Source: a virus (taxonomy: Duplodnaviria > Caudoviricetes). Taken from it: a stretch of 64,000 nt of DNA. The stretch is from the IMG/VR virus record IMGVR_UViG_3300009155_000035, one strand, 5' to 3'. A model generated the notes under the pieces. The model searched no databases and was not told the origin of the DNA. It saw only the letters and a program-made list of their open reading frames with translations. This document shows positions 21,824 through 44,723 of the stretch, piece after piece. The position numbers and the translations under genes are program-made. Numbering within the stretch: position 1 is the stretch's first letter; the number at the start of each line of letters is the position of its first letter.

Positions 21824-22940
21824 CGTATATCAGCACTGGGATCCACTCAAAGTTTGTGCAGTTGGTCGTAGCTACCCACCAGAATTTTATTCTTGGATCA
21901 CAGTACCCCATGTGCGAGAATTGTTTGAACGTATTGCAACTGAAACTGAAGAAGATTATCAAGCAATTATTAACAAGCTACAAGAATTTGGAGTTGAGAT
22001 TGTTAGACCCAATCTACCTAAAAATACTATCATAGACGGCAAACATGTTGTACCACCCATGTGCCCGCGTGATTTTATGATTATGATTGATAATCAATTT
22101 TGCTCCACTGTTCTGACTTGGGATGACTTTTATCAACAGGTAAGAGACCCAAGTTGGCCAGAACACGTGAACGATATAAGTGAATTGGAGATCTGGCAGC
22201 AACAAGAATGTAACAATCTACATAATTGGCAAAATGTCTATGATTCATGGATATATACCTGGAAACCAATAGTTGACAAAGTGCAGAGTCAAGGTAACGC
22301 TATTAAACATTTGTCAAAGTACAAGCACGTAAATGGTGCATGTGTAAGTCGTATAGGTCGAGACTTATACTTTGGTACTGAAAATTACAGTGACGACCCT
22401 AGTTATTATCAAAACATTGCTGACCAGGAATTCCCACATAAGCGAAACCACATTGTGAACACAGGTGGGCATTCTGATGGTACTTACTGTCCAGTCTGTC
22501 CAGGACTAATTATAAGTTTAGAAGATGTTCCTACTTATGCAAAAACATTCCCAGGATGGGAAGTGGTGTACTTGCCAGGGCAGAGTTGGGACAAAGTTCA
22601 ATCATTTTTAGCATTGAAATATAAAAATCGAGGCAAGTGGTGGATTCCTGGGTTTGAGACTGATCAATCAGTAATTGATGTTGTTGAAAATTGGCTGGGT
22701 CATTGGACTGGGTATGTTGAAGAAACAGTGTTTGATGTAAACATGTTAATCATAGACCCCAAAAATGTCATGGTATTTAACTACAACGAACAAGTGTTTA
22801 CAGCACTGGAACGATATGGAATCACTCCGCATATTGTACCTTTTAGGCACAGATATTTTTGGGATGGTGGTATTCACTGTGTTACCCTTGACCTGCATCG
22901 AGAAGGTGTTGAAAACAATTATTTTCCAGAACGTAAATGA
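21816..22940 (+). CDS. Amidinotransferase (glycine/inosamine-phosphate amidinotransferase family) with inserted module
   Basis: WDPLKVCAVG, PRD, GGHSDG, FDVN, HRYFWDGGIHCVT (catalytic Cys). Confidence 0.85.
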   Translation: MYNVYQHWDPLKVCAVGRSYPPEFYSWITVPHVRELFERIATETEEDYQAIINKLQEFGVEIVRPNLPKNTIIDGKHVVPPMCPRDFMIMIDNQFCSTVLTWDDFYQQVRDPSWPEHVNDISELEIWQQQECNNLHNWQNVYDSWIYTWKPIVDKVQSQGNAIKHLSKYKHVNGACVSRIGRDLYFGTENYSDDPSYYQNIADQEFPHKRNHIVNTGGHSDGTYCPVCPGLIISLEDVPTYAKTFPGWEVVYLPGQSWDKVQSFLALKYKNRGKWWIPGFETDQSVIDVVENWLGHWTGYVEETVFDVNMLIIDPKNVMVFNYNEQVFTALERYGITPHIVPFRHRYFWDGGIHCVTLDLHREGVENNYFPERK

Positions 22941-23728
22941 TTGACTTTAGTTCTACTAATCCAGTAGTAGTTTCTTACCCTGCATTTTCGGGCGGCAAAT
23001 TTATAGTAAATTGTTTGTCCTTGAGTCGACATTCTTGCCTTATGGATAATCGATCTGCTGTGCATGTGTTGAAAAATCCCGGTGATTATGAATTTAGACT
23101 ACAACAAGTGATGGCTACTTTACCTCTAAAAGAGGATTTACTAAACTGGCAACGATATGAGTTTGATGAAGTAAAGTTATACGGGAAACATTTTGAAACA
23201 CTACCAGTTCCAGAACAGCTAGCACCAATTGTAGAACAACTAAGCAAATCAAATCTAAAGTTTTATACAATTGATCATAACGGTCCTCCAAACATCAATA
23301 ATACTCTATCAATTTGGCCTAATGCCACAGTAGTTCGGCTCATAAATTGTAGACATTTTCAAAATATTTCTATACAATTAAAGTCAACCCGACACGATGC
23401 AACACAACTTTGTGGTAACTATTGTGAGGAAAAATATAATCAATTGTGCGGACCGAGTTGGCCTAGTTGGGAAGAGTTTGACCAAGTGGGACACGATGTT
23501 CGAAGAATACCTAATGTTGATGATACTGTGATAAGTGAGATAAATCAATACTATCCCTGGAACACAGTTTCAAACAACGTTGTACAATTTGATATGGACG
23601 CTTGTATTTTTGATGAAACAAAATTTCTTGAATCAATGCAACAACTGTATCAAACACTGGGACTCGATGACTTCAATCGAGAACTAGTTTTAAAATTTTA
23701 TCAGGCATACATAAACCTACATTATTAA
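22937..23728 (+). CDS. Sulfotransferase-fold-like hypothetical protein with GPSWP module
   Basis: YPAFSGGKF N-terminal loop; C-terminal F.....FD...F...M..LY..LGL resembles the sulfotransferase tail. Confidence 0.4.
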   Translation: MIDFSSTNPVVVSYPAFSGGKFIVNCLSLSRHSCLMDNRSAVHVLKNPGDYEFRLQQVMATLPLKEDLLNWQRYEFDEVKLYGKHFETLPVPEQLAPIVEQLSKSNLKFYTIDHNGPPNINNTLSIWPNATVVRLINCRHFQNISIQLKSTRHDATQLCGNYCEEKYNQLCGPSWPSWEEFDQVGHDVRRIPNVDDTVISEINQYYPWNTVSNNVVQFDMDACIFDETKFLESMQQLYQTLGLDDFNRELVLKFYQAYINLHY

Positions 23729-23737
23729 GGACCTAAC

Positions 23738-24793
23738 ATGGCAAAACCATTTGACATTAGCAAATTTCGCAAGGAAATTACCAAGAGCATTGACGGGCTC
23801 AGTATTGGTTTTAACGATCCCACAGACTGGATCTCAACAGGCAACTATGCCTTGAATTATTTGATCTCGGGCGATTTTAACAAGGGCATCCCTTTAGGTA
23901 AAGTCACTGTGTTTGCTGGCGACTCTGGCGCAGGCAAGTCGTACATCTGCTCAGGTAACATTGTCAAACACGCACAAGAGCAAGGCATCTTTGTGGTGTT
24001 GATCGACAGTGAAAACGCACTTGACGAAGACTGGCTCAAAGCACTTGGCGTTGACACAGGCCCGGACAAACTACTTAAATTGAGCATGGCCATGATTGAT
24101 GATGTAGCTAAAACTATTTCAACATTCATGAGTGACTACAAATCTTTGCCCGACGGAGAACGCCCCAAAGTTCTTTTTGTTATTGACTCACTCGGCATGC
24201 TGTTGACACCTACTGATATAAACCAGTTTGACAGCGGTGATCTAAAAGGCGACTTGGGTCGCAAGCCCAAAGCTCTAACTGCCTTGGTTCGTAATTGCGT
24301 CAACATGTTTGGCAGCTACAACGTTGGTCTGGTGTGTACCAATCACACCTACGCAAGCCAAGACATGTTTGACCCAGACGACAAGATCTCGGGCGGCCAA
24401 GGTTTTATCTATGCCAGCAGTATTGTGGTTGCTATGAAGAAGATGAAGCTCAAAGAGGACGAAGATGGCAACAAGGTATCTGAAGTAAATGGTATTCGTG
24501 CAGGCTGTAAAGTTATGAAAACACGATATGCCAAGCCGTTTGAAGGCGTTCAAGTCAAGATTCCTTACACAACAGGTATGAGTCCTTATTCGGGTCTTGT
24601 GGACTTGATTGAAAAGAAAAACTTGCTCAAGCGTGAAGGTAACAGTTTGGTGTTTACCACAAGCGATGGCGAAGTCATCAAGAAGTTCCGCAAAGCGTGG
24701 GAAAAAAATGATGAAGGTTGTCTTGACAAGGTCATGATAGACTTTAAAAATCAAAAGGAAGAGGTAAGTATCTCTGAGGAGGATGCTGAATAA
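23738..24793 (+). CDS. uvsX: RecA-like recombinase UvsX
   Basis: STGNYALNY, AGDSGAGKS Walker A, DSENALD, VIDSLG, NHTY, SGG.GF.YASS. Confidence 0.95.
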   Translation: MAKPFDISKFRKEITKSIDGLSIGFNDPTDWISTGNYALNYLISGDFNKGIPLGKVTVFAGDSGAGKSYICSGNIVKHAQEQGIFVVLIDSENALDEDWLKALGVDTGPDKLLKLSMAMIDDVAKTISTFMSDYKSLPDGERPKVLFVIDSLGMLLTPTDINQFDSGDLKGDLGRKPKALTALVRNCVNMFGSYNVGLVCTNHTYASQDMFDPDDKISGGQGFIYASSIVVAMKKMKLKEDEDGNKVSEVNGIRAGCKVMKTRYAKPFEGVQVKIPYTTGMSPYSGLVDLIEKKNLLKREGNSLVFTTSDGEVIKKFRKAWEKNDEGCLDKVMIDFKNQKEEVSISEEDAE

Positions 24794-25059
24794 TGAGTGA
24801 AGAATTAGCAAGTGTAATTTGGAGCGAACTTAAACGCTACATCAACACAGTCGATCGTGTAGAAGCCGCCGAAAATTTAATTAGTATATTGATTGACAAT
24901 GACTGCAACCCTGACGACATCAAGGATGCCTTCAAGGGAGATGCCGAGTTTAAACGTGCCATGGCAAGTTACCTTGACACTGGCCAGGATGGGCAGGAAG
25001 AGGAAGAAGAGGAAGAAGAGGACTTTACTGACTTTGAAACCGATGATTGGGAAGAGTAA
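24793..25059 (+). CDS. Small acidic hypothetical protein
   Basis: 88 aa with poly-Glu tail, between uvsX and uvsY with overlapping junctions. Confidence 0.6.
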   Translation: MSEELASVIWSELKRYINTVDRVEAAENLISILIDNDCNPDDIKDAFKGDAEFKRAMASYLDTGQDGQEEEEEEEEDFTDFETDDWEE

Positions 25060-25511
25060 TGTGGTATAGTCGTGTAGTTGCTGACCTTGGGGCTATCCCA
25101 GACTTTATCGCATACTACGAAAAAGAACTTGACGAAGCCAAAAAAGAATGTCGCATTGGTGGCTTAGTTGAGCGTAACATCAAAGACCTTCCGGGTATAA
25201 CCGAGCATCGTTTCAATCAACTGCAAGAGATTGAAGCAGTTCTTAATTTTCTTAATATCCAGTTACGCAAAATCCGCAAACGCCATTTCCAAAAATATCT
25301 TGAAGCGTATGCACGAGCCTTGACAAGTCGTGACGCTGAAAAGTACGTTGATGGTGAGGATGAGGTTATCGATTTTGAAACTATTATCAATGAAGTGGCT
25401 CTATTGCGTAACAAATGGCTAGGCATCATGAAAGGTCTTGACACTAAGCAATGGCAAATGGGACACATTGTTAGACTGCGCACAGCAGGCATGGAAGATA
25501 TCACTGTATGA
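25059..25511 (+). CDS. uvsY: Recombination mediator UvsY-like
   Basis: HFQKYLE.Y.RAL.SRDAEKYVDGEDEV, K.LD.KQWQMGHIVRLR.AGMED; downstream of uvsX. Confidence 0.75.
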   Translation: MWYSRVVADLGAIPDFIAYYEKELDEAKKECRIGGLVERNIKDLPGITEHRFNQLQEIEAVLNFLNIQLRKIRKRHFQKYLEAYARALTSRDAEKYVDGEDEVIDFETIINEVALLRNKWLGIMKGLDTKQWQMGHIVRLRTAGMEDITV

Positions 25512-26266
25512 TGCCAAGATTTTTAACTCCTGCTGATAGTCACAAGCACAGTTTAGAAACATTAAATCAATTGCTTGAGTACGATGATTTTATGTTGACT
25601 ATTGAAAGCATGCTTGATTTGGGATGCGGCCCCGGCCTTGACTTAGAATGGTGGGCGAATCTCACCACTAGAGACGAAGTTCCGCAACCGTTGAATATTA
25701 AATGCCTGGGTGTGGACATGCGCCCAGCATTGAGTCTTGCGCAAAAATATCGAAATGTGCAATACATGGTACAAGATTTTGAAGATGAACTCAAAGTTAA
25801 CCAGCAATACGATTTAATTTGGTGCCACGATGCATTCCAATACTCGATTAATCCATTAAAAACATTAAGCAATTGGAACAAAGTGCTAACCAATGACGGA
25901 ATGTTGATGCTGGTGCTACCACAAACAACCAACATAGAGTACAACAAGTTAGCATACGATCAAGCTGACGGATGTTATTTCAACTGGACCTTGGTTAGTT
26001 TAATACATGCATTGGCGGTAAATGGATTTGATTGTCGTGGCGGATACTTTCATAAAGATGCAACAGATCCCTGGATCAAAGCAATTGTGTATAAAAGTGA
26101 GCATGGCCCTATGGATCCTAAAACCACACGCTGGTATGATTTAGTTGATAAAAATTTATTGCCAGAATCAGCTGTGGACAGCGTCAACAAATACGGCTAC
26201 CTGCGCCAACAAGACTTGGTTCTACGTTGGATAGACAAATCCATACACACCTACGCTAATCATTAA
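25508..26266 (+). CDS. Class I SAM-dependent methyltransferase
   Basis: MLDLGCGPG motif I, GVD, YDLIWCHDAFQY, VLTNDGML. Confidence 0.85.
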   Translation: MMPRFLTPADSHKHSLETLNQLLEYDDFMLTIESMLDLGCGPGLDLEWWANLTTRDEVPQPLNIKCLGVDMRPALSLAQKYRNVQYMVQDFEDELKVNQQYDLIWCHDAFQYSINPLKTLSNWNKVLTNDGMLMLVLPQTTNIEYNKLAYDQADGCYFNWTLVSLIHALAVNGFDCRGGYFHKDATDPWIKAIVYKSEHGPMDPKTTRWYDLVDKNLLPESAVDSVNKYGYLRQQDLVLRWIDKSIHTYANH

Positions 26267-27083
26267 GCAGTCTCTTTAGTGGATATCCACTAGCAATTTC
26301 ATCAACGGTCCACTCGGTGTGTGCAATTTGATTTAACCAGGATTCTCGATCAGGACGCAACGGAGATTCAATTTGACTGAAATCTAAATTTGCAACAGGT
26401 GCCGCAAGGCTTGACGCCCCAACAAACGCTGGCACGCCATTAATAATTGCTTGCACACCCGGACCACTATTCCAATTAACAACGGCCCAAGTTGATTTAA
26501 GACTTTGCGCAAAGTCAAACTGATCATAAGTGTTGGGGACCTTGATTGGGATTTCAATGTCTGCTGGCACCTTGATTTTGTATCTGGGATGTAGACGAAC
26601 CACAATAGGACGTTGACTATGTTGTCTTATAGTGTGCATAGTAGTTGATATCCACTGCTCAAGTTCTGGCTGCCCGGCCCACTGCCCACTGTCAGCTCGT
26701 TGTGTAGCAATCACAATCTTATCTCCGGTGTGCTGCCAAGGCTGAAGATTTAATCCAAGCGTTTTTGCTCGATCAGGTATATCATACTTGCCATAATAAG
26801 CATTTGATCCTGTTCCATTAACGCCAAGTTTCCAGGTGCGACCGCGATCAAACAAACCAACTTCGACAACAACAACAGGTCTTCCTGTGGATCTAAATTT
26901 TTGCCAAACAATTTGGTTTGATGACATTCTTCCAGCCCATACCATACTCCATACTACTGCAACATCTGCATCCATGTCATGGCTGTTGAATTTTACACCA
27001 ATGGCATCTAGTCCAGATCGTATGGCCGCAAATACAGGTTGACTATTAAGAGCTCCATAGTGATCAAAAAGAGTTACTAGCAT
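26256..27083 (-). CDS. KpsS/KpsC-like (capsule biosynthesis-type GT-B) protein, paralog 1
   Basis: IVVRLHP, AVVNWNSGPGVQAIINGVPAF, WL..IA..EW motifs. Confidence 0.55.
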   Translation of the reverse strand: MLVTLFDHYGALNSQPVFAAIRSGLDAIGVKFNSHDMDADVAVVWSMVWAGRMSSNQIVWQKFRSTGRPVVVVEVGLFDRGRTWKLGVNGTGSNAYYGKYDIPDRAKTLGLNLQPWQHTGDKIVIATQRADSGQWAGQPELEQWISTTMHTIRQHSQRPIVVRLHPRYKIKVPADIEIPIKVPNTYDQFDFAQSLKSTWAVVNWNSGPGVQAIINGVPAFVGASSLAAPVANLDFSQIESPLRPDRESWLNQIAHTEWTVDEIASGYPLKRLLND

Positions 27084-27104
27084 AGTGTTATGTTTAAATA
27101 TGTG

Positions 27105-27911
27105 ATGAGCAGAAAATTTTCAGTAGTTACCACTTTCAATCAAGATGGGTATTTAAAGTACGGTAGTCGAATGATTGACACATTTTTAACAAATTGGCCA
27201 TCAGATGTCGTACTGTATGTATACGCAGAGGATTGCGTAATAACACAAACAGCCCCAAATCTAATTGTCATGGCAATGCCACAAGAGTTAGTGCAATTTA
27301 AACAACAATGGGCCGGTGTTCCAAAAGCCAATGGGGATGTTTCATTGGATCCTATTAGGTCAACACGCCGAGACGCTGGCAAGGGATTTAAATGGGATGC
27401 TGTTCGTTTTGCTCACAAAGTCTACGTTATTTTTGATTGTGCTCGCAACTGTGATGCAGATGTATTGCTTTGGATGGATGGTGACATGGTGTGTCACAGC
27501 CCTATCTCTATTGCGGAAATATCAATACTGTGCCCAGAAACAAAAGATCTTTGCTTTCTCGGACGAAAAAACAAATATACTGAGTGCGGACTGTATGCAA
27601 TGAATCTACACAGTGAATCTCTTAAACAGTTTTTGCAAGAGTTTCAACGCTGTTATGACCAAGCAGAGCAAGGCATCTTTCAACTTGACGAGTGGCATGA
27701 CAGTTATGTATTTGATGCTGTGCGAAAACGTTTTCGACTTGTTGAATTAGATTGGTCCAGTCATTTGATTACCGGGGAAGGGCATCCTCTAATCAATAGC
27801 ACTTGGGGTAGATATCTTGATCATCTTAAAGGTGACCGAAAATCTCTAGGACGTAGCAAACAGAAAGATTTAAAGACGCCTAGGATTGAGGAGTATTGGC
27901 AGACTTTTTAG
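27105..27911 (+). CDS. GT-A fold glycosyltransferase-like protein
   Basis: VVTTF, WDAVRFAHKV, LLWMDGD (DxD), EWHDSYVFD, HLKG; TAAATA at 27095-27100. Confidence 0.7.
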   Translation: MSRKFSVVTTFNQDGYLKYGSRMIDTFLTNWPSDVVLYVYAEDCVITQTAPNLIVMAMPQELVQFKQQWAGVPKANGDVSLDPIRSTRRDAGKGFKWDAVRFAHKVYVIFDCARNCDADVLLWMDGDMVCHSPISIAEISILCPETKDLCFLGRKNKYTECGLYAMNLHSESLKQFLQEFQRCYDQAEQGIFQLDEWHDSYVFDAVRKRFRLVELDWSSHLITGEGHPLINSTWGRYLDHLKGDRKSLGRSKQKDLKTPRIEEYWQTF

Positions 27912-28578
27912 GCATCTTGGCCCACATGCCAGTTTTTGTTAAGCTCTTTTTACCATCAGTATCTACAGCGGCCCTCCCCATCAAGTGTGAATGACATTGT
28001 AAGTTTACCACACTCATGTTAAGTGCATTGTCGGCTGGCAAGTAATAGTGCTGGTAATGTTTGCACAGTTTAGATGCTGCCTTGGGAGTAATTGCGTATC
28101 CCACTGCTCCGGGCATTACTTTCCCTTTGAATTTACAAGCCATGGGCTCGCCTTGGGGAGAGTAAAGTTTCTCTTTATAAAAATCGTTTTCGTACGCTGC
28201 TTTTCCAGTAGCAAGCAATAGGATATCATCCCACTCAATGGGCACAAACCCCCGCTCAAAGATTACGTCATCTTCAAAAATCATAATTGATTCATTGAGT
28301 TCAGCGCACAGTTGCCACAGTCGGTAGTGGCTGTGAAAACATCCCATTACTCCCGGTCTCTCACACGAACGCCTATAATTGTCGTCGATAGCATTGCCCT
28401 TGAAGCTGATTGGTTGTAGTTCTCGACCTTCTTTTTTAAAAATATCCACGGCATCATTGCCATATGTACCTTCAAATAGACTGGCATTAATCCCAAACTT
28501 AATAAGATCATTGACAACTTTTTTCCCGCTGTTTGCGGAACTGTAAATTTTGCTTAGACTGATTACAAAGGCTCTCAT
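27880..28578 (-). CDS. Glycosyltransferase family 25
   Basis: FVISL, GCFHSHY.LW, IFEDD, GAVGYAITP.AA.KL, PAD; minus-strand TAAATA at 28584-28589. Confidence 0.85.
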   Translation of the reverse strand: MRAFVISLSKIYSSANSGKKVVNDLIKFGINASLFEGTYGNDAVDIFKKEGRELQPISFKGNAIDDNYRRSCERPGVMGCFHSHYRLWQLCAELNESIMIFEDDVIFERGFVPIEWDDILLLATGKAAYENDFYKEKLYSPQGEPMACKFKGKVMPGAVGYAITPKAASKLCKHYQHYYLPADNALNMSVVNLQCHSHLMGRAAVDTDGKKSLTKTGMWAKMPKKSANTPQS

Positions 28579-28601
28579 GTTAATATTTACTAAGTATTGC
28601 T

Positions 28602-29285
28602 ATGAGCAATATATTAGTTTCGATAATTTTACCAACTCGTAAACGTAGCAAACTTGTTGAGAGAAGTGTGCGTAGTTTGTTAGAGACTGCTGATCGCCCA
28701 GATCAAGTTGAAATTTTAATTGCGTATGACAATGATGACCAAGAAAGCAAACAGTACTTTAATTCTCAGGATTGGAAAGATTTAATCAGCAAATTCAATG
28801 CCAAAACACAAGTAATTGAATCTCACCCTTGGGGTTATTCTGAGCTACACCAGTATTGTAATGCACTGACCAAATTATCAACCGGACAGTGGCTAATGCT
28901 ATGGAACGACGATGCTGTGATGCGTACCCAAGCCTGGGACAAACACATTGCAGAAAATCAAGGATACCTCGGAATGCTACACATGTCCACAGAGAATTTT
29001 AGAGAAGCATTGACATTGTTTCCGGTTGTCCCGCGACAATGGATTGATATTTTTGGAACATACAGCCAAACAAATTTATGCGATTCTTGGATACAAGATG
29101 TGTGTGAGCAGGCCGACGCTGTGCGAGCAATACCTGTTAGAGTTTTTCATGACAGATTTGACGCCACTGGAAACAACGGAGACGAAACCTATCAAAATAG
29201 GTATTACAGAAAGAAGAGACATAACTCGGAAGAAATGAAACAAACAAGAACTGCTTGGGCACACAAGTTAATGCAGTTTAAATAA
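28602..29285 (+). CDS. Glycosyltransferase family 2-like
   Basis: VSIILPTR, EILIAYDNDD, G.WLMLWNDD, FP.V, CDSW. Confidence 0.8.
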   Translation: MSNILVSIILPTRKRSKLVERSVRSLLETADRPDQVEILIAYDNDDQESKQYFNSQDWKDLISKFNAKTQVIESHPWGYSELHQYCNALTKLSTGQWLMLWNDDAVMRTQAWDKHIAENQGYLGMLHMSTENFREALTLFPVVPRQWIDIFGTYSQTNLCDSWIQDVCEQADAVRAIPVRVFHDRFDATGNNGDETYQNRYYRKKRHNSEEMKQTRTAWAHKLMQFK

Positions 29286-34188: not shown

Positions 34189-34190
34189 GG

Positions 34191-35277: not shown

Positions 35278-35280
35278 TCT

Positions 35281-35700: not shown

Positions 35701-35719
35701 TAAGTAGTGTTATAGTTTC

Positions 35720-35791: not shown

Positions 35792-35810
35792 CTTGATTAA
35801 ATACAACATC

Positions 35811-37744: not shown

Positions 37745-38445
37745 AGCAAGCCATAAGCGAAGTGATGATCAAACGCAATCGTGATTTGAAATTTCAACCC
37801 CCACCTTATAACAAAAATGCCTCATTTGATTGGATACAATGGCATTCAGGTTTGCCTTGGCTCAGGCTTGATATCCCAGTTCCCGCAGACACAATCTTAA
37901 AAGAAATTGCCAAAATTGAACCGTACTTGACAGTGCACCGTGAAGAGTATTCAGAACACGCAGGCTGGAAAAGCTTTTGTATTCATGGCAAAGCTTATGA
38001 TGCCACTCGCGAAGATACGCATTATAACGATCAACGGCCTTATACTTGGACCACAGAAGCATTGCAACACATGCCAGAAACAGTTGAGTACTTTAAAAAT
38101 CATTGGCCAGGATCTGGATACAGGCGTATTCGAGTTATGTTGCTGGAGCCTGGCGGGTACATTACCATACATGCAGACGCTACTTCACCGGGCATGCGAG
38201 CAGTCAACATATCAATTACTCAACCAGAACAATGCGACTTTATCATGTCTGGGCATGGCACTGTGCCATATCAGACAGGGTCTGCCATGTGGTTAGATAC
38301 ATCTAATTTGCACGTGGTGTATAATCACAGTACCAAACCCAGATGGCATATCATAGTACATCAACAGTTTGACAACATCAAGTTCCAAGACTTGGTTGTA
38401 AACAGTTACAAAATGTTGTATAATAACATTGATGCGCCCAGATAA
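37738..38445 (+). CDS. Asp/Asn beta-hydroxylase-like 2OG-Fe(II) oxygenase
   Basis: RIRVMLLEPGGYITIHAD (HxD), LDTSNLHVVYN.S..PRWHIIV; start moved to 37738. Confidence 0.8.
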   Translation: MLKQAISEVMIKRNRDLKFQPPPYNKNASFDWIQWHSGLPWLRLDIPVPADTILKEIAKIEPYLTVHREEYSEHAGWKSFCIHGKAYDATREDTHYNDQRPYTWTTEALQHMPETVEYFKNHWPGSGYRRIRVMLLEPGGYITIHADATSPGMRAVNISITQPEQCDFIMSGHGTVPYQTGSAMWLDTSNLHVVYNHSTKPRWHIIVHQQFDNIKFQDLVVNSYKMLYNNIDAPR

Positions 38446-39559
38446 TTTTTGTTATGCACCCTGGTCCGGACTTGAGATCATGCAAAGTGGTAAGATATTG
38501 CCATGTTGTAAGTTCATGGACGAATACTATGACCGACGATACAACATAACACAAGACACAGTGGATGATTATCGTAACAGCAAGTACCTGGCCGAGATCA
38601 AACAAGAATTTTTAAATGGGCAATGGCCACGTGGTTGTGAACGTTGCAAGCTTGAAGAAGAATCACATATAAAAAGCAAACGTCAACTTGACTATGATCG
38701 TTGGCAAGACAAGTATGCAACCTATGACATCAACAGCAACGAATGTTTGTCACTGGGTATTGCATTTGGTAACACTTGCAATTTAAAATGCATCATCTGT
38801 CATCCATCTGCATCCAGCAAGTGGCAGAAAGAATATAGTGATTTATATGGTGTGACTTTTCCCATAATAGAAAGTTTCCGTAAGCCTGTTATTAATTCAA
38901 TTACAAGCCTAGCCCCCAATCTCATGCACATAGATATCTATGGTGGAGAACCATTTTTGTCCGGCATTGCAGAACATGAACAACTGCTTGACTACTACAT
39001 TGCATCAGGTCAAGCAAAAGAAATCACAATCCATTATACCACAAACGGCACACTATGGCCTGGCGAATCTTGGTTCAGTCGCTGGCAGCATTTCAAAGAG
39101 ATTGATTTGCAAATAAGCATAGATGGCATTGAAGAACGATTTGGCTATCTAAGATTCCCGGCCAAATGGAGCGACCTAGAACACAATGTACAACAATACA
39201 TAAGTCGCCAAAGTAGCAATTTTAGGCTAAGTGTGGCTCACACCGTGAGTGCATTTAATGTATACTACTTGGACGAATTTATTTCTTGGTGCCATGCCGT
39301 GGGCTTGCCAAAGCCCTGGTTAAGTCGATTACACAAACCCGAAGCCATGCGGGCCAACGTTTGGCCACGTGAAGTACGTGAAGTAATATCTCAGCACCTG
39401 CGCAAAAGCCGTTGGCCCGAAGTAAAGAACTGGGCTAGACTAATATTAGAAGATGGTCCTGACAGATTTGAGGAGTTTTGTGACCTTGTCAGCAAACATG
39501 ATCGGTATAGAAAGTTAGATTACAGGATAATTTTTCCCGAGATGGCACAGTACATATGA
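38432..39559 (+). CDS. Radical SAM protein with N-terminal SPASM/twitch-like Cys cluster
   Basis: CYAPW, PCC, CERC; NTCNLKCIIC (CxxxCxxC), GGEP, TTNG, SIDG, YLRFP..W. Confidence 0.85.
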   Translation: MRPDNFCYAPWSGLEIMQSGKILPCCKFMDEYYDRRYNITQDTVDDYRNSKYLAEIKQEFLNGQWPRGCERCKLEEESHIKSKRQLDYDRWQDKYATYDINSNECLSLGIAFGNTCNLKCIICHPSASSKWQKEYSDLYGVTFPIIESFRKPVINSITSLAPNLMHIDIYGGEPFLSGIAEHEQLLDYYIASGQAKEITIHYTTNGTLWPGESWFSRWQHFKEIDLQISIDGIEERFGYLRFPAKWSDLEHNVQQYISRQSSNFRLSVAHTVSAFNVYYLDEFISWCHAVGLPKPWLSRLHKPEAMRANVWPREVREVISQHLRKSRWPEVKNWARLILEDGPDRFEEFCDLVSKHDRYRKLDYRIIFPEMAQYI

Positions 39560-41025
39560 AGCGAGCAACATTAATTATACGTGACGAAGTCAACTTGAAG
39601 ATTGAAGGACTGGATCTTGACGCTCGCCGCACACTGGTCAATAAGTTCAAGTACGATGTTCCTTATGCACGTTATCTACCGGCAGTGAGATTGGGCAGAT
39701 GGGACGGCAAGGTCAGTTACTTCCAACTTGGCGGCAGTACCTACGTTAATTTGTTGCCAGAAATAATTCCTTTGCTTGAACAAATGAATTATGACATAGA
39801 GCTAGAGGACCAGCGAGAGTATTCAGTTACATTTGATTTCAAAGAAGTTGAAGAAAATTCTTGGTCACATAAAGTTTGGCCAAAAGGACATCCTGCAGAA
39901 GGTGCTCCTGTAATGTTACGTGATTACCAAGTATCAATTGTCAATAACTTTTTGCAAAATCCGCAATGCATCCAAGAAGTTGCCACCGGCGCCGGTAAAA
40001 CCATTATGACAGCCACGTTGAGTTCACGCATAGAACCTTACGGACGAAGCATTGTTATTGTACCCAACAAAAGCCTTGTTACACAAACAGAAAAAGATTA
40101 TGTGAATCTAGGTCTAGATGTTGGCGTGTACTATGGCGAGAGAAAAGAACACGGGCATCAGCACACTATTTGCACCTGGCAGAGTTTAAATGTATTGCTT
40201 AAAAATACCAAGTCAGGTGTGGGCAATGTTACTATACAAGACTTTATCGAAGGTGTGGTATGTATAATTGTTGACGAAGTACACATGGCCAAAGCTGATG
40301 CGCTCAAAACTTTGTTGACAGGTGTAATGAGTACCATACCTATTCGTTGGGGACTCACTGGAACAATCCCAAAAGAAAAATTTGAAAGCCAAGCACTAAT
40401 GGTAAGTCTTGGTCCAGTAATTGACCGCTTGACTGCCAACGAACTACAACAACAGGGCGTGTTGGCCAATTGCCATGTGAACATTGTTCAACTGGTTGAT
40501 CATGTAGAGTACAAAGACTATCAAAGCGAACTAAAGTATTTGTTAGAAGAGTCTGGTAGGTTGGACACAATCTCCAAGCTTGTACAGCAAGTTAATGAAA
40601 CCGGCAACACATTAGTGCTGGTAGATCGAGTAGCAGCCGGGCATGAGTTAGTTAGCCGTTTAGGTGATCGTGCAGTGTTTGTATCGGGTGCAACCAAAGC
40701 AAAGGCAAGACAAGATGAATATGATGAAGTGGCCGAGAGTACTGGAAAGATTATTGTGGCGACTTACGGTGTGGCCGCTGTGGGTATTAATATTCCAAGG
40801 ATTTTTAATCTGGTTCTTCTTGAACCCGGAAAGAGCTTTGTCCGCGTTATACAATCAATTGGACGCGGCATTAGAAAAGCAGAAGATAAAAACTTCGTAC
40901 AAATCTGGGACGTCACGTCAACGTGCAAATTCGCTAAACGTCACCTTACAAAACGCAAGCAGTTCTACAAAGAAGCCAACTATCCCTTTACGCAGGAACA
41001 GCTAGAATGGATGACACATGGGTAA
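39556..41025 (+). CDS. uvsW: SF2 DNA helicase (UvsW-like)
   Basis: LRDYQ, ATGAGKT, IVDEVH, WGLTGT, ATYGVAAVGINIP, QSIGRGIR. Confidence 0.9.
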   Translation: MKRATLIIRDEVNLKIEGLDLDARRTLVNKFKYDVPYARYLPAVRLGRWDGKVSYFQLGGSTYVNLLPEIIPLLEQMNYDIELEDQREYSVTFDFKEVEENSWSHKVWPKGHPAEGAPVMLRDYQVSIVNNFLQNPQCIQEVATGAGKTIMTATLSSRIEPYGRSIVIVPNKSLVTQTEKDYVNLGLDVGVYYGERKEHGHQHTICTWQSLNVLLKNTKSGVGNVTIQDFIEGVVCIIVDEVHMAKADALKTLLTGVMSTIPIRWGLTGTIPKEKFESQALMVSLGPVIDRLTANELQQQGVLANCHVNIVQLVDHVEYKDYQSELKYLLEESGRLDTISKLVQQVNETGNTLVLVDRVAAGHELVSRLGDRAVFVSGATKAKARQDEYDEVAESTGKIIVATYGVAAVGINIPRIFNLVLLEPGKSFVRVIQSIGRGIRKAEDKNFVQIWDVTSTCKFAKRHLTKRKQFYKEANYPFTQEQLEWMTHG

Positions 41026-41605
41026 AATTTTTCAACAAGTAAAAGAGTTCTTGCCGCCAGTTAGTGGCGATGAAGTATTTGTCGAGATCGGCAGTGATCG
41101 CTACGAAGGATCAACTGCTTACTTTGCAGAACTTGCCTTGGAACGAGGCACAGTATTACACACAGTTGACGTTATTAACGATGCTCAACAGCGACTACGT
41201 AAACTAGATGGGGTCGAGTGGCACCTTGGCACTGGCAGCGAATGGGCCAAGACAATGTATCCAACAATTAACCGACCAATCACTTGCTTGTATCTTGACA
41301 ACTTTGACTACATTTGGGAAGCATCGCCAAATCGTAAACTACGATACATCGAAGAACAAATCAAATTTTACAAAGACACATTCAATGTTGACATGAACAA
41401 TCAAAATTGTCAAATTGAACACTTCAAACAAATACAAGCATTGTATCCTTACCTAGCTGACCATTGTGTTGTGGTATGTGACGATACATACCCTGTTAAT
41501 GATTGTTGGATTGGCAAATGCGGTGCAGTGGTTATATTTTTGTTGGCCAATAGATTTTCCATTGTCAGTAGAACCGATGATTGCGGCATAATTTTAGTTA
41601 GATAA
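41018..41605 (+). CDS. Class I SAM-dependent methyltransferase-like protein
   Basis: FVEIGS motif I, TVD, CLYLD, VVVCDDT, GK. Confidence 0.65.
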   Translation: MGKIFQQVKEFLPPVSGDEVFVEIGSDRYEGSTAYFAELALERGTVLHTVDVINDAQQRLRKLDGVEWHLGTGSEWAKTMYPTINRPITCLYLDNFDYIWEASPNRKLRYIEEQIKFYKDTFNVDMNNQNCQIEHFKQIQALYPYLADHCVVVCDDTYPVNDCWIGKCGAVVIFLLANRFSIVSRTDDCGIILVR

Positions 41606-41614
41606 ACAAATAGG

Positions 41615-41643
41615 TTGACTACACTTGCACAACCATTTATAAT
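41615..41643 (+). promoter_or_regulatory. Sigma70-like promoter
   Basis: TTGACT (41615-20), 17 bp, TATAAT (41638-43), ATG at 41651. Confidence 0.7.
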
Positions 41644-41650
41644 GTAATAT

Positions 41651-42151
41651 ATGAGAATACTAACACTTGACGATACGGCATATGATTTAAACACGTTGCC
41701 AGAAGAAGTAGATGACATGCGTTTTGCTATTTTAGATAATAGCGATCCCAACGCACCAGATTACTTTTACATACCTTTGATTTTTCTTGAAAGCTTTAAT
41801 AGCCCAGCTTTGGTATTGAAAATTGGAGAGCATACAATTCGAATGCCCATGGACTGGCAAGTACTAATTGGGGAACCAGACATAGGTGACTTAGAAGTAC
41901 TGCCACTCACAGCTATCAACGATCGTGGCTTCAGAGTATTTCAGTTCAATCCGCTAAGTAGTTTTAGGCCCAGCTTTCCAGACATTGAAATCGTGGATGT
42001 GTATCACGAAGTAACATGGTATGCCCCAAAGTTAAAAAATGGACAAATGCTAGCTGTGCCACTCACTGATGGGGACACCCCAGAATGTGTCTACTTTGTC
42101 AAAGATGTAAGCCGTAATTGCGAAGTAGTCAATTATAATTTGGCCTGGTAA
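41651..42151 (+). CDS. Hypothetical protein, possible degenerate Hint-like beta fold
   Basis: 166 aa, beta-strand pattern; see finding. Confidence 0.45.
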   Translation: MRILTLDDTAYDLNTLPEEVDDMRFAILDNSDPNAPDYFYIPLIFLESFNSPALVLKIGEHTIRMPMDWQVLIGEPDIGDLEVLPLTAINDRGFRVFQFNPLSSFRPSFPDIEIVDVYHEVTWYAPKLKNGQMLAVPLTDGDTPECVYFVKDVSRNCEVVNYNLAW

Positions 42152-42153
42152 TT

Positions 42154-42363
42154 ATGGATCAATACAAAGACGACGGAACTGACCGCAAGGTAGTTGCACT
42201 TCATAAAGATAAAACAGAACAAGAATTGCATACCAAGATTAGCGAACTAGCTCGCAAAGTTGAAGAACAAGATGCTAAAATACAGCGCATGCATCGCGAC
42301 ATTGTGCGTTTGCGAGAAGCCATTAACCAAGTAGCAATTAGATCAAACCCAAATGCTCGATAA
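42154..42363 (+). CDS. Small coiled-coil hypothetical protein
   Basis: 69 aa heptad pattern; operonic. Confidence 0.5.
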   Translation: MDQYKDDGTDRKVVALHKDKTEQELHTKISELARKVEEQDAKIQRMHRDIVRLREAINQVAIRSNPNAR

Positions 42364-42793
42364 ACTACACATTCGAAATGAGATGGCAAATCTTGATCGA
42401 AAGAATCGCGAGTTCTACGACAGCTTGACTGATGAGGAACGCAAGAAGTTCAGTCCTTATCTCATGATTCGCTGGAGCAGTGCAATTGATGGAGACAGAG
42501 AACTTCAAGAGTATTATGTAAGAAGTTGCAATCACTATCTTAATCGAGACTTCTTTGCAGTCAATCGTCATCCCAAACTGCAATGGCTCATGGCAACCGC
42601 AGTAAGCCCGGATCTGGGTACGCCTTCGCACTCTTGGATAAAGCCCAAACCAAAAGAAAAAGGTGACAATGAAGTTAAGAAAAAGTTGATGTCGTTATAC
42701 CCAAACATGAAGATGGACGAGATCGAATTGCTCAGTAAGCTAGTATCTAAAAAAGATATAGCTGCCTATATGCGTGAGATGGGTGATGATTGA
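42353..42793 (+). CDS. Possible clamp-loader small subunit (gp62-like)
   Basis: FSPYLMIRW and W(I)KPK resemble the phage clamp-loader A subunit; replication context. Confidence 0.4.
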   Translation: MLDKLHIRNEMANLDRKNREFYDSLTDEERKKFSPYLMIRWSSAIDGDRELQEYYVRSCNHYLNRDFFAVNRHPKLQWLMATAVSPDLGTPSHSWIKPKPKEKGDNEVKKKLMSLYPNMKMDEIELLSKLVSKKDIAAYMREMGDD

Positions 42794-42795
42794 AC

Positions 42796-43470
42796 ATGTC
42801 TTATATTTGCCGATATTGTGACCGAGAGTTTGTTAAAGAAACCAGTTTACAAGTACATGTTTGCGAACACAAGAAGAGATATCTTGAACGTGAAGAAACA
42901 GGTGTACAAATTGGATTGCAAGCATACTTGACTTTCTATGAGATTACTCAAGGATCAGCTAAACTAAAATCCTGGGACGACTTTGTCAAGAGTCCGTACT
43001 ACAGGGCATTTGTTAAATTTGGTAGATACTGTCAAAGTATTCGCGCAATCAACATTTCACGTTTTATCGATTGGCTGCTCAAGAACAACAAAAAAATTGA
43101 CTACTGGTGTCGCGATACTGTGTATACAGAATATTTGGAAAGTTATCTCAAAGTAGAAGCAGTTACCGACGCACTGGCTAGAGCAATAGAATACAGCATT
43201 GCTTGGGCTGAGATCACAGACAGTCCGTCGCATGATTGTTTGAGATTTGGCAACGACAATGTTATTTGCCACAACATCATATCAGGTCGTATAAGCCCCT
43301 GGGTGGTGTACAATTGTGACTCGGGCATTGAGTTTTTGGGTCGTATCAATCAAGAACAACTTGCTATGATTTGGAACTTGGTAGACACAGATTTTTGGAG
43401 TAAAAAATTCCAGGATTATGTGGCCGATCAAGAATATGTCAAAGATATCTTAAAACAAGCAGGATGGTAA
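42796..43470 (+). CDS. Hypothetical protein with N-terminal C2HC/C2H2 Zn finger
   Basis: YICRYCDREFVKETSLQVHVC. Confidence 0.55.
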   Translation: MSYICRYCDREFVKETSLQVHVCEHKKRYLEREETGVQIGLQAYLTFYEITQGSAKLKSWDDFVKSPYYRAFVKFGRYCQSIRAINISRFIDWLLKNNKKIDYWCRDTVYTEYLESYLKVEAVTDALARAIEYSIAWAEITDSPSHDCLRFGNDNVICHNIISGRISPWVVYNCDSGIEFLGRINQEQLAMIWNLVDTDFWSKKFQDYVADQEYVKDILKQAGW

Positions 43471-43737
43471 ATGCCAGCTGGTGTAATAGTGTTGAGCAAA
43501 GACACCTGGGAAGACTTGGAAGATCGCCTGCGAGATGAATATGCACATACACCAAGTGTGATGCTTATTAGAAGCCGCATGAGAGAAGTACTGGGATTTA
43601 CTCCGCGGGTTCACAGTCAATGGATTGAATTCACACCAGCCAACAGCACTGTTCCTAGAATCCGTCTGATTGAAGAAGTGCATTTAGATTTTTTCAATCC
43701 AGCACAAGAAACATTTTTTAGACTAAAATATCTATGA
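43471..43737 (+). CDS. Small hypothetical protein
   Basis: 88 aa ending F.LKYL, abuts neighbours. Confidence 0.5.
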   Translation: MPAGVIVLSKDTWEDLEDRLRDEYAHTPSVMLIRSRMREVLGFTPRVHSQWIEFTPANSTVPRIRLIEEVHLDFFNPAQETFFRLKYL

Positions 43738-44723
43738 CACCAATTGATTTCATGGGCGGGTCTCATGGAAACTTCCTTGAATTTGTTTGCAACAAGTTTC
43801 TTGCCAAGGTACCTGTTGCCGCTGATATTCCGTTTAACTTATACGGCGCCAGTCATGGCAAACAATACTTGGGCAAGAAAGAATTTGTATGCGCTCACTA
43901 CTCGGTGTTTGGCGAACCAGTTCCAGCAGGCAAAGTGATATCAATACAAATTACGCAGGATGATTTACTTGCGTTACAATGTATCAGTCTACTTCGAGCC
44001 GGGGACTACGATATTAATCCAAATCAACTTGAAGTCAACACTTACAACAAGTTAAACAATCGAGACTATCGTTGGGTACTTGATAATTTGTGCAACAAAT
44101 ATTTTGATAACCAAGTAGCAGAAAGTTACCAAGCAATCGCCGACCCAAATTGGCCATGTGTTACCAGTGTTGATGAATACAATCAACTACCAGAACCAAT
44201 ACGTGTTGAATGTGAGCAGGTACACAGCCTACAATTATATCAGTTTAATTCTGAACATCCAGATTGTCCTAGATATATTTTACGAGAGTTTTTTAAATTT
44301 GGATTTGCTAATCCAGACAAGCATGGATTCATTGCTCATCAACAGTTAATGCAGTATACTAGTGAACATAGTGTTTACATATTTCCCTATTCAAGTTTTT
44401 ATGACACTGATGTTTTTGTAACCGAGGTAGTCAAGTTGTCAAACTGGATGGGATTGTCGTTTACGCCTGATGAGGAATTTGTAACTTTGCACCAAGAATT
44501 TTTAAAACGGCAAGTGTATAAAAATGTCAAACAGGATTGTGAGTCAATTGTTGAAAAAATCATGCTTGGTGAACAGTTTAGATTGCCAAGCTTGGATGTT
44601 ATTCAAGAAGCATATATTGAAGCCAGGATTGAACAGTTGACAGGAATACAGATGCCACTGAATCAACACAAGTGGTTTTTTAATTCAATAGAAATACAAA
44701 ATTTATATGAGCGCCGACGTTGA
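43734..44723 (+). CDS. Sulfotransferase-fold-like hypothetical protein with DPNWP module
   Basis: DFMGGSHGNFL N-terminal loop; FPYSSFYDTD.F...V..L...MGL tail; internal YQAIADPNWPC module. Confidence 0.4.
   Translation: MTPIDFMGGSHGNFLEFVCNKFLAKVPVAADIPFNLYGASHGKQYLGKKEFVCAHYSVFGEPVPAGKVISIQITQDDLLALQCISLLRAGDYDINPNQLEVNTYNKLNNRDYRWVLDNLCNKYFDNQVAESYQAIADPNWPCVTSVDEYNQLPEPIRVECEQVHSLQLYQFNSEHPDCPRYILREFFKFGFANPDKHGFIAHQQLMQYTSEHSVYIFPYSSFYDTDVFVTEVVKLSNWMGLSFTPDEEFVTLHQEFLKRQVYKNVKQDCESIVEKIMLGEQFRLPSLDVIQEAYIEARIEQLTGIQMPLNQHKWFFNSIEIQNLYERRR

What the first reader, a model, noticed from the sequence alone, without database searches (positions are those of the whole stretch)
22119..44225. 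Recurrent uncharacterised Y...(D/G)PxWP micro-domain inserted in three unrelated enzymes
Seen: WDDFYQQVRDPSWPEHVNDISELEIWQQQEC inside the amidinotransferase (about 22119-22229); EKYNQLCGPSWPSWEEF (about 23429-23480); and ESYQAIADPNWPCVTSVDEYNQLPEPIRVEC (about 44121-44225). The pattern is Y-x3-4-(D/G)P(S/N)WP-x-(acidic, F/Y)...EC. It lies mid-domain in hosts that otherwise share no fold. Inference: a mobile 30-35 aa module acting as a shared docking or localisation tag that assembles these enzymes into a complex or targets them to one substrate or compartment. I know of no named family for it.
Basis: partly seen in the sequence, partly recalled or inferred. Interest (0 to 1): 0.75.

Follow-up and report, generated by a model that had tools for sequence, protein, structure and literature searches.

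The report
Unnamed mini-domain shuffled among phage enzymes
A small (about 40-45 residue) helical protein module that has no name in the domain databases is shared by unrelated tailoring enzymes of uncultured aquatic giant phages. It sits at different places in them, and it most likely works as a common handle for one shared partner, though that role is untested.

Summary

- **Solid copies.** The copies in the amidinotransferase-like gene (21816-22940) and in the 329-aa gene (43734-44723) are truly homologous. Family profiles align only over the module (hhalign 98%, E 1.3e-13).
- **Third copy.** The copy at 22937-23728 is a divergent relative that lacks the Cys and His (68%, E 4.6e-5).
- **Hosts.** Two of the three hosts are not unrelated: both have a sulfotransferase-like fold.
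- **Spread.** A 41-position profile finds 768 protein clusters among 1.84 billion. With the module masked, the top 150 plus viral-contig ORFs fall into 31 host groups. These include radical SAM, methyltransferases, an Asp/Asn-hydroxylase-type cupin, amidinotransferase and sulfotransferase-like proteins.
- **Mobility.** The module lies at the N-terminus, inside, at the C-terminus or in tandem, and its position differs within single host families.
- **Range.** A strict DNA pattern hit one small MAG contig in 596 Gb of prokaryote genomes, but at least 120 IMG/VR contigs. No deposited phage, Pfam family or PDB sequence matches.
- **Function.** A docking or recognition role is inferred only. A zinc site and DNA binding look unlikely.

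The parts
21816..22940 (+). Host 1: amidinotransferase-like gene (374 aa), with the catalytic-type GGIHC Cys, His and Asp positions aligned to AGAT
   Evidence: The family profile A4 hits solved amidinotransferases: AGAT at E 2.6e-11, also HsvA, SxtG and StrB1. There are 4345 metagenome homologues. The Pfam ADI match is below the cut-off.
22119..22235 (+). Module copy in host 1 (residues 102-140). It is a decayed version: a 2-residue deletion and LP changed to LE.
   Evidence: HMM built from the other family alone: E 1.1e-5. Broad module HMM: 26 bits, E 3.4e-7. This is the only confident part of the AF2 model, with pLDDT 77-88. The family consensus is shown.
22937..23728 (+). Host 2: 263-aa sulfotransferase-fold protein, always directly upstream of uvsX in relatives
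   Evidence: The Atlas structure matches Sulfotransfer_3/1 clusters at TM 0.51-0.55. The family of 10 sequences is. Synteny is shown.
23426..23560 (+). Divergent module-like segment in host 2 (residues 164-208). It keeps Y, WP, EEF and I..E but has no LP, Cys or His.
   Evidence: hhalign of the family profile against the 155-instance module profile: probability 68%, E 4.6e-5, 38 columns with a 7-residue insertion. The segment is conserved across the family.
43734..44723 (+). Host 3: 329-aa sulfotransferase-like protein, a conserved gene inside the replication module
   Evidence: AF2 pLDDT 91. VIA Z 9.0 to SULT1B1, with top hits nearly all sulfotransferases. Foldseek also finds sulfotransferases. 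At least 534 homologues. Its neighbours are a helicase, a DNA polymerase piece and a primase.
44115..44237 (+). Module copy in host 3 (residues 128-168): helix 127-135, WP loop 136-145, short helix 146-150, LP, helix 154-163
   Evidence: Family invariants are Y132, W140, P141, L152, P153, E159, C160 and H164. Module HMM: 50-62 bits. Secondary structure comes from the model.

Best explanation
Shown. The motif marks a real, self-contained domain of about 40-45 residues. Its consensus is (W-x2-F)-Y-x2-[VI]-[KR]-D-x-S-W-P-x-[CIV]-x4-[DE]-F-x2-L-P-x2-I-[QKR]-x-E-C-x3-[HF]. It is predicted to fold as helix, WP loop, short helix, helix. Domain shuffling has moved it among many unrelated enzyme families of uncultured aquatic (freshwater and marine) large myophages. 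It was not found in cellular genomes or in deposited phages.

In this window there are two clear copies and one divergent one. One clear copy is inserted at a length-variable site of an amidinotransferase-like enzyme. The other lies in the cap region of a sulfotransferase-like protein. The divergent copy is in a second, smaller sulfotransferase-fold protein.

Inferred. The host enzymes use different cofactors (SAM, radical SAM, 2-oxoglutarate/Fe, arginine, and a PAPS-like or nucleotide donor). The module keeps a nearly identical surface whatever its position. It therefore most likely binds one partner common to all these enzymes. That partner could be a shared acceptor, a carrier or a scaffold of one phage-encoded tailoring pathway, probably glycan-type. 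The module would then work the way RRE domains or dockerins give unrelated enzymes the same address. It is acidic, so the partner is more likely a protein or a cationic or sugar moiety than nucleic acid.
For: - Homology confined to the module: hhalign A4 against A2 gives 98%, E 1.3e-13 over 65 columns, and the two families align without gaps over 41 columns.
- Spread: 768 clusters at E<=1e-3 and 113 at E<=1e-10 among 1.84e9 representatives, with the module at N-terminal, internal and C-terminal places and in 2-3 stretches.
- Host diversity after masking the module: 31 BLAST clusters, 17 with more than one member.
- Pfam above or near cut-off for host representatives: Radical_SAM, SPASM, Asp_Arg_Hydrox, MTS and FkbM. 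Weak hints of class I methyltransferase, Sulfotransfer_2, GT10 and GDSL.
- Position differs within homologous hosts. Radical SAM P0264 has it at 150-190 and P0283 at 13-53. FkbM-like P0365 has it at 109-149 and P0396 at 9-49. A radical SAM/SPASM pair has it at the N-terminus in one member and the C-terminus in the other.
- Conservation over 155 instances: W12 100%, L24 99%, Y4 and P13 98%, E31 97%.
- Module identity across the two families is 42%, against 50-54% within each.
- Virus restriction: the same DNA pattern hit 1 contig in genome contigs against at least 120 in viral contigs. The profile found nothing in 400 other genomes of that MAG's phylum.
- Pathway link: the sulfotransferase-like gene lies directly upstream of the amidinotransferase-like gene, and overlaps it, in 8 loci (4 distinct module pairs). 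The order gp32, GT10-like, amidinotransferase, host 2, uvsX is conserved in relatives.
- The module is the only confidently modelled part of the amidinotransferase model, and it is confident in the 329-aa model. This fits an autonomous fold.
- Acidic: mean net charge -3.2, negative in 89% of instances.
Against: - No binding partner, substrate or complex was identified, so the function rests on analogy.
- Long phage contigs carry only 1-2 strong module genes, plus a weak third match in one. Many tailoring enzymes in this window, for example two radical SAM genes and the GT10-like gene, lack it. It is therefore not a tag for a whole pathway.
- Most of the best-conserved positions are hydrophobic and may only maintain the fold.
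- In the two mid-domain hosts the module lies near the presumed active-site entrance, which would also fit a plain lid.
- I could not inspect 3D coordinates, so surface exposure is unverified.
- The census of cellular genomes used one strict DNA pattern plus a 400-genome profile sample, not a full profile scan.
Confidence: 0.5

Rival explanations
1. It is a generic structural lid or cap. On this view it is a small, robustly folding helical unit, recruited repeatedly because it closes or stabilises active-site entrances. There is no common partner, and conservation reflects folding only.
For: In hosts 1 and 3 it sits in variable regions next to the catalytic core. In host 1 it follows the PRD strand, where AGAT has its own insertion of similar length. 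In host 3 it lies in the cap between beta3 and the following helices of the sulfotransferase-like fold. Most invariant positions are hydrophobic or aromatic.
Against: In several host clusters it is terminal (residues 6-46, or the last 40 residues) or in tandem, where it cannot be an inserted lid. Polar positions are also conserved across unrelated hosts: [KR]8 92%, D9 83%, [DE]20 90%, [QKR]29 95%, E31 97%. The restriction to one virus group is hard to explain for a generic fold element.
Confidence: 0.2
2. It is an enzyme-to-enzyme assembly element. Modules would bind each other, as homo- or hetero-oligomers, so that module-bearing enzymes form a metabolon.
For: Sulfotransferase-like and amidinotransferase-like genes that both carry it are adjacent and overlap in 8 loci. 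In the window the amidinotransferase gene overlaps the next, module-like gene. Tandem copies occur within one protein.
Against: Two of five long contigs (135-138 kb, though estimated only 35-39% complete) show a single module gene. Modules from the same genome are no more alike than modules from different genomes, 0.40 against 0.42 identity, so there is no sign of pairwise co-evolution. In the window the two clear copies are 20 kb apart.
Confidence: 0.15
3. It is a cation-binding, EF-hand or dockerin-like helix-loop-helix. D9 to [DE]20 is a 12-residue loop between two helices, with oxygen ligands at loop positions 1, 3, 9 and 12. The module would be a Ca2+- or Mg2+-dependent docking unit.
For: In the 329-aa model the entering helix ends at residue 135 and the exit helix starts at loop position 10. 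Conservation is D 83% at loop position 1, S 64% at 3, T/S/N 77% at 9 and D/E 90% at 12. The module is acidic.
Against: Trp at loop position 4 and Pro at position 5 (98-100%) replace a canonical ligand, and there is no Gly at position 6. No EF-hand or dockerin Pfam match was found at E<=10 on isolated modules. The proteins are presumably cytoplasmic, where free Ca2+ is low (general knowledge).
Confidence: 0.08
4. It is a zinc- or iron-binding micro-domain that uses Cys15, Cys32 and His36.
For: The E-C-x3-H spacing lies on one helix face, and a further Cys follows WP in 54% of instances.
Against: Between host clusters Cys15 alternates with I/V/L, His36 with Phe, and Cys32 with I/L/V. This is the pattern of buried packing residues, not of ligands. 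The divergent copy in host 2 has neither Cys nor His.
Confidence: 0.04
5. It is a chance or compositional resemblance, or a native element of one superfamily to which all hosts belong.
For: The pairwise BLASTP E-values between the window proteins alone are marginal, 0.003-0.25.
Against: Profile statistics are strong and the shuffle test gives 3 against 0.006. The hosts carry Pfam families of different folds: radical SAM, Rossmann methyltransferases, a cupin hydroxylase and the amidinotransferase pentein fold.
Confidence: 0.01

Closest known systems
RiPP recognition element (RRE, PqqD-like domain)
   Same: It is a small accessory domain fused at variable positions to unrelated tailoring enzymes (radical SAM, methyltransferases and others) of one pathway, giving them a common substrate address. 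This is the best functional analogy.
   Different: An RRE is about 90 residues and is a winged helix with a beta-sheet. It has a Pfam family and binds a leader peptide. Here the unit is about 40-45 residues and all-helical, has no Pfam hit, and no precursor peptide was identified. The resemblance is conceptual and recalled from knowledge, not tested.
Dockerin / EF-hand-type docking modules of cellulosomes
   Same: These are short modules appended to many different enzymes that dock them to a scaffold. They have a helix-loop-helix with a 12-residue acidic loop. Tandem duplication occurs.
   Different: There is no sequence match. WP occupies loop positions 4-5. The proteins are intracellular phage enzymes. 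No cohesin-like partner is known.
Carbohydrate-binding modules (CBMs) on glycan-active enzymes
   Same: They are promiscuous small modules at the N-terminus, C-terminus or internal sites of diverse enzymes acting on one polymer. Many hosts here look like glycan-tailoring enzymes.
   Different: CBMs are mostly beta-rich. This module is helical and acidic, and no sugar binding has been shown.
Variable insertion of L-arginine:glycine amidinotransferase (AGAT) and relatives
   Same: The module in host 1 occupies the same inter-strand region, after the PRD strand, where AGAT carries a long insertion of its own.
   Different: There is no sequence similarity to the AGAT insertion. The four deposited phage homologues have other insertions or none, with module HMM scores of 0.6 bits or less.

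Membership tests
Any named protein domain family (Pfam-A) for the module itself | A significant HMM match over the 40-residue segment | tested here: not met
   No Pfam hit covers the module in 3 window proteins and 30 module-bearing representatives. Six isolated segments scanned at E<=10 gave only two chance rows, at E 0.07-0.12. The PDB sequence profile search gave a best E of 0.69.
Amidinotransferase (AGAT/StrB1 type) - host 1 | Sequence homology to solved amidinotransferases | tested here: met
   Profile A4 against PDB: AGAT E 2.6e-11, HsvA 2.3e-10, SxtG 9.4e-10, StrB1 1.5e-6. The match is strongest over the C-terminal 64 residues, and weaker stretches align collinearly.
Amidinotransferase (AGAT/StrB1 type) - host 1 | Catalytic Cys in the C-terminal GG[FI]HC, plus the His and Asp of the triad | tested here: met
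   GGIHC aligns with GGFHC of AGAT. GGHSDGT aligns with the HIDAT region and GKDLYF with GRDIF. These positions are invariant in A4: C355, H219, D221 and D183. Which residues are catalytic is taken from knowledge of AGAT.
Amidinotransferase (AGAT/StrB1 type) - host 1 | Pfam or NCBIfam model above the curated cut-off | tested here: not met
   PF02274 scores 14.8 bits against a cut-off of 22.8. NCBIfam arcA scores 12.7 against 489. The protein is therefore a divergent relative, and its activity is not shown.
PAPS-dependent sulfotransferase - hosts 2 and 3 | Sulfotransferase fold | tested here: met
   Host 3 model: VIA Z 9.0 to SULT1B1 (rmsd 4.6 over 179 residues), and about 17 of the top 20 hits are sulfotransferases. 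Foldseek finds StaL at E 0.01. AFDB rows are nearly all sulfotransferase domains. Host 2: TM 0.51-0.55 to Sulfotransfer_3/1 clusters. The strength is middling.
PAPS-dependent sulfotransferase - hosts 2 and 3 | Sequence-family match and the Lys-containing 5'-phosphosulfate-binding loop | tested here: inconclusive
   There is no sulfotransferase Pfam hit at E<=0.1. The loop after strand 1 reads GG-[AS]-H-G-N in host 3 and A-G-G-K-F in host 2. Equivalence to the PKxGTTW loop was not checked in 3D. A kinase-like or other donor is not excluded, since P-loop kinases appear at Z 6-7.
EF-hand / dockerin | A 12-residue loop with ligands at positions 1, 3, 5, 7, 9 and 12, and an HMM match | tested here: not met
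   Positions 1, 3, 9 and 12 fit, but position 5 is Pro (98%) and position 4 is Trp (100%). There is no Pfam hit.
RRE (PqqD-like) | A PqqD-type winged-helix domain of about 90 residues | tested here: not met
   The unit has 41 profile positions, the models predict only helices, and no PqqD Pfam hit was found.

The most novel reading that the evidence does not exclude
The module is a phage-specific docking domain, possibly cation-dependent and dockerin-like. It would recruit chemically unrelated tailoring enzymes (radical SAM, methyl-, sulfo-, amidino- and glycosyl-transferases, hydroxylases) onto one phage-encoded scaffold or growing product. That would make an intracellular, cellulosome-like assembly line in giant aquatic phages, and would define a new family of protein-interaction domains.
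Probability: 0.12. Interest if true: 0.85.

Novelty: new variant of a known kind. Interest (0 to 1): 0.62.

Why it matters
Giant aquatic phages carry dozens of tailoring enzymes whose targets are unknown. One address-like module shared by enzymes with different chemistries gives a practical way in. Finding what the isolated 45-residue module binds would name the common target, whether a glycan, a carrier or a scaffold protein.

The module is also a clean marker for a large group of uncultured phages. It was found in at least 768 protein clusters and essentially not found in cellular genomes. It is a candidate new entry for domain databases, and its repeated repositioning within single enzyme families is a clear case of domain shuffling in viruses.

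Tried and rejected
- **Zinc-site idea.** Rejected, because Cys15, Cys32 and His36 alternate with I/V/L or F between host clusters.
- **DNA-binding idea.** Disfavoured: mean net charge is -3.2.
- **Extra copies in the window.** 48004 (primase Toprim ORF) and the N-terminus of 20128-20940 (SGNH block I) are not module matches.
- **Window radical SAM genes.** 38429-39559 and 48143-49243 are not close relatives of the module-bearing radical SAM cluster and have no module.
- **Deposited phages.** tblastn of a single module and of a tandem pair found nothing. Hosts 2 and 3 have no tblastn match there, and the DNA of 21816-23728 has no blastn match.
- **The search for related loci with the module alignment.** A hand-built degenerate DNA pattern was used instead.
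- **AF2 of host 1.** With 20 close homologues it failed outside the module (pLDDT 45), so the 3D position of the insert in the amidinotransferase fold could not be read.
- **Atlas search with the module alone.** No usable hit by features and only generic helical matches.
- **Literature.** There is no paper on the motif. The only 'DPSWP' hit is an unrelated desmocollin paper. The pelagimyophage paper PMC7029224 describes tailoring genes in variable regions but not this module.
- **Whole genome.** None is held for the window.
- **Expression.** No RNA holder is listed; only one freshwater metagenome DNA run holds the gene.
- **Concerted evolution.** Within-genome concerted evolution of the modules was not seen.


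Full report
**1. Observation.**

The three quoted peptides translate exactly at the stated coordinates. They lie in three + strand ORFs:
- host 1: 21816-22940, 374 aa;
- host 2: 22937-23728, 263 aa;
- host 3: 43734-44723, 329 aa.

In each pairwise BLASTP the best local alignment is the motif, but the E-values are only marginal (0.003-0.25). The case therefore rests on family profiles.

**2. The module is homologous between host 1 and host 3.**

Host 3 has at least 534 metagenome homologues. Host 1 has 4345. In both alignments the motif region is among the best conserved parts. The consensus of host 1's family is FY-x2-VKD-x-SWPEC-x-S-x2-EF-x2-LP-x-WIQ-x-EC-x3-H. That of host 3's family is SY-x-AVKD-x-SWP-x-I-x5-F-x2-LP-x-WI-x2-EC-x3-HNL.

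Segments from the two families align without a gap over 41 columns. Profile-profile comparison of the full-length families gives 98% probability and E 1.3e-13. The similarity is confined to 65 columns around the module. An HMM made from host 3's family alone finds host 1 at E 1.1e-5 among all 1063 six-frame ORFs of the window.

The window's own copy in host 1 is a decayed version. It has a two-residue deletion and LE in place of LP, and it scores 26 bits where typical copies score 50-75. Its closest orthologues share this state.

**3. The third copy.**

Host 2 belongs to a small family of 10 clusters. In it G-N-Y-C-x2-K-Y-x2-L-x-G-x2-WP-S-W-E-E-F is conserved. Against a module profile of 155 instances the family gives hhalign probability 68% and E 4.6e-5. 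The alignment needs a 7-residue insertion, and host 2 has no LP, Cys or His. I read it as a divergent relative, not an independent solid copy.

**4. What the hosts are.**

*Host 1* is a divergent amidinotransferase. Its family profile hits AGAT, HsvA, SxtG and StrB1 (E 2.6e-11 to 1.5e-6). The GGIHC Cys and the His and Asp positions align. The Pfam and NCBIfam models stay below their cut-offs.

*Host 3* folds confidently (pLDDT 91) and resembles sulfotransferases:
- VIA Z 9.0 to SULT1B1, with top hits nearly all sulfotransferases;
- Foldseek StaL at E 0.01;
- AFDB rows almost all sulfotransferase domains.

*Host 2's* Atlas model also matches sulfotransferase clusters (TM 0.51-0.55). hhalign links hosts 2 and 3 weakly from the module onward (E 0.002). 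Hosts 2 and 3 therefore probably share a fold and may have inherited the element vertically. 'Three unrelated enzymes' is not correct. PAPS use is not established for either.

**5. Is it an insert in the amidinotransferase?**

The module lies between the PRD strand and the GKDLYF strand. Among phage homologues this region varies greatly in length. The four homologues in deposited phage records are three paralogues of Marine virus AG-345-D19 and Synechococcus phage S-SCSM2R. They have other sequence or nothing at this site, and they score 0.6 bits or less with the module HMM. AGAT has an unrelated insertion of similar length at the same place. The module is thus a clade-specific acquisition at an insertion hot spot. 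The AF2 model of host 1 failed (pLDDT 45) except for residues 100-150, which are the module (pLDDT 77-88). That result is consistent with an autonomous fold.

**6. Wider distribution.**

A 41-position profile built from both families (A5) was run against 1.84 billion cluster representatives. It found 768 proteins at E<=1e-3 and 113 at E<=1e-10. The module lies at residues 6-46 of proteins of about 270 aa, in the middle of others, in the last 40 residues of proteins of 400-430 aa, and in two or three stretches in some.

I masked the module and clustered the top 150 hits together with 139 module ORFs from viral contigs. This gave 31 host clusters, 17 with more than one member. Pfam assigns representatives to Radical_SAM (with SPASM in one), Asp_Arg_Hydrox, MTS and FkbM methyltransferases, and a further weak methyltransferase-type match. 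Sub-threshold hints point to class I methyltransferase, Sulfotransfer_2, GT10 and GDSL/SGNH. Several clusters have no family at all.

**7. Mobility.**

Within homologous hosts the module changes place:
- Radical SAM P0264 has it between the core and the C-terminal region (150-190). P0283 has it ahead of the core (13-53).
- FkbM-like P0365 has it at 109-149. P0396 has it at 9-49.
- A radical SAM/SPASM pair has it at opposite ends.

Tandem copies occur, for example in P0253, P0254 and P0256. At the amino-acid level, modules of the two main families are 42% identical across families and 50-54% within them. Modules from the same genome are no more alike than modules from different genomes. This is old domain shuffling, not a recently mobile DNA element.

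**8. Range.**

A strict degenerate DNA pattern for the module hit one stretch in 596 Gb of prokaryote species genomes. That stretch is a 2.5-kb contig of a 'Legionella' MAG. It carries a host-1-like gene and a neighbour family seen in 15 viral loci, so it is probably binned phage DNA. The profile found nothing in 400 other genomes of that MAG's phylum.

No deposited phage record matches. Five long IMG/VR contigs (135-236 kb) carry one or two strong module genes each, plus a weak third match in one. The window's uvsX is closest, at about 65% identity, to jumbo myophages such as Phosso, Atu_ph07, GAP32, CBB and Vibrio phage 2.275.O. The only run that holds host 3's gene is a freshwater metagenome, while relatives of host 3 also come from Tara Oceans data.

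**9. Context.**

Host 3 is a syntenic gene of the replication module. Around it lie a helicase (39556-41025), a DNA polymerase piece (44707-45285), a Toprim primase (47170-48150), a DnaB-like helicase (49960-51396) and two radical SAM genes. The neighbouring gene families recur in 46-64 of the viral loci.

Hosts 1 and 2 lie between a gp32-like gene and uvsX, behind SGNH-like and GT10-like genes. Relatives keep the order gp32, GT10-like, host 1, host 2, uvsX. In 8 IMG/VR loci a host-3-like gene lies directly upstream of a host-1-like gene and overlaps it. An amidinotransferase paired with a sulfotransferase-fold partner is therefore a recurring unit.

**10. Anatomy and function.**

Over 155 instances the conserved positions are:

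| Position | Residue | Share |
|---|---|---|
| 4 | Y | 98% |
| 7 | V/I | 96% |
| 8 | K/R | 92% |
| 9 | D | 83% |
| 12 | W | 100% |
| 13 | P | 98% |
| 15 | C or I/V | 54% / 42% |
| 20 | D/E | 90% |
| 21 | F/Y/W | 97% |
| 24 | L | 99% |
| 25 | P | 96% |
| 28 | I | 94% |
| 31 | E | 97% |
| 32 | C | 93% |
| 36 | H | 80% |

Many copies add W-x2-F just upstream. The models give helix, WP loop, short helix, LP, helix.

The alternations Cys15 with I/V/L, His36 with Phe, and Cys32 with I/L/V argue for core packing, not metal ligation. The module is acidic, with mean charge -3.2, which argues against nucleic-acid binding. The stretch from D9 to [DE]20 is a 12-residue interhelical loop with oxygen-bearing residues at loop positions 1, 3, 9 and 12. 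This is EF-hand-like, but WP at positions 4-5 and the lack of any Pfam hit make that reading a minor one.

The hosts use different cofactors yet keep the same polar positions wherever the module sits. I therefore infer a partner common to all of them: a shared acceptor, a carrier or a scaffold of one tailoring pathway. That is analogous to RRE domains, dockerins or CBMs. None of this was tested. Few module genes occur per genome, so the module is not a tag for a whole pathway, and universal module-to-module assembly is unlikely.

**11. Known or new.**

No Pfam family, PDB sequence or paper covers it. PHROGs only holds host 1's family as 'unknown function'.

An earlier first-stage note of this scan (e1-5318857) described the same module in host 3 and in an SGNH-like ORF just beyond this window, on the same genome. 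I could not fetch that ORF. I did find weakly GDSL-like hosts among the metagenome hits.

**12. Verdict.**

This is a real, unnamed domain that has so far been found only in viruses and that is evolutionarily mobile. The phrase 'three unrelated hosts' is overstated, and the docking function is plausible but unproven.

Noticed in passing
window 18979-24793; L137, L138, L135: The gene order gp32-like, GT10-like, amidinotransferase-like, 263-aa sulfotransferase-fold gene, uvsX is conserved in metagenome relatives. One relative (L135) has GT10-like, the 263-aa gene and uvsX without the amidinotransferase, and carries a hexapeptide-repeat gene instead.
   Followed up: partly
L014, L017, L018, L022, L053, L065, L092, L123: In 8 IMG/VR loci (4 distinct module pairs, so some loci are near-duplicates) a host-3-like sulfotransferase-fold gene lies directly upstream of an amidinotransferase-like gene and overlaps it. 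Both carry the module. In the window these two genes are 20 kb apart.
   Followed up: partly
window 22119-22235: The window's amidinotransferase carries a decayed module: a 2-residue deletion, LP changed to LE, and 26 bits against 50-75 bits for typical copies. Its nearest orthologues in L137 and L138 share this state, so this lineage may be losing the element.
   Followed up: partly
P0010, P0015 (homologues of window 43734-44723): Some host-3-like proteins are about 550 aa. Their C-terminal extension contains a VIDVGCG-type motif typical of SAM methyltransferases, which suggests a fusion of the sulfotransferase-like protein to a methyltransferase.
   Followed up: no
window 38429-39559 and 48143-49243: Two radical SAM genes (PHROG radical SAM families, E 1e-13) sit inside the replication module, next to the helicase and primase genes. 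Neither carries the module.
   Followed up: partly
L006 (CAISKC010000217.1, 2.5 kb): The only prokaryote-genome hit is a short contig of an 'uncultured Legionella' MAG. Both of its genes belong to families seen on viral contigs, so it is probably phage DNA binned into the MAG.
   Followed up: partly
window 44707-45285: A 192-aa ORF directly after host 3 matches a PHROG 'DNA polymerase' family over its full length (E 4.6e-51). It is far shorter than a polymerase and may be a split or stand-alone piece.
   Followed up: no
window 20128-20940 and 47170-48150: Two look-alikes of the WP motif are not copies. GSSITEDSPWPTW at the N-terminus of the SGNH-like ORF is its block-I region. IPNWPEDVKDVND lies in the Toprim domain of the primase.
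   Followed up: yes
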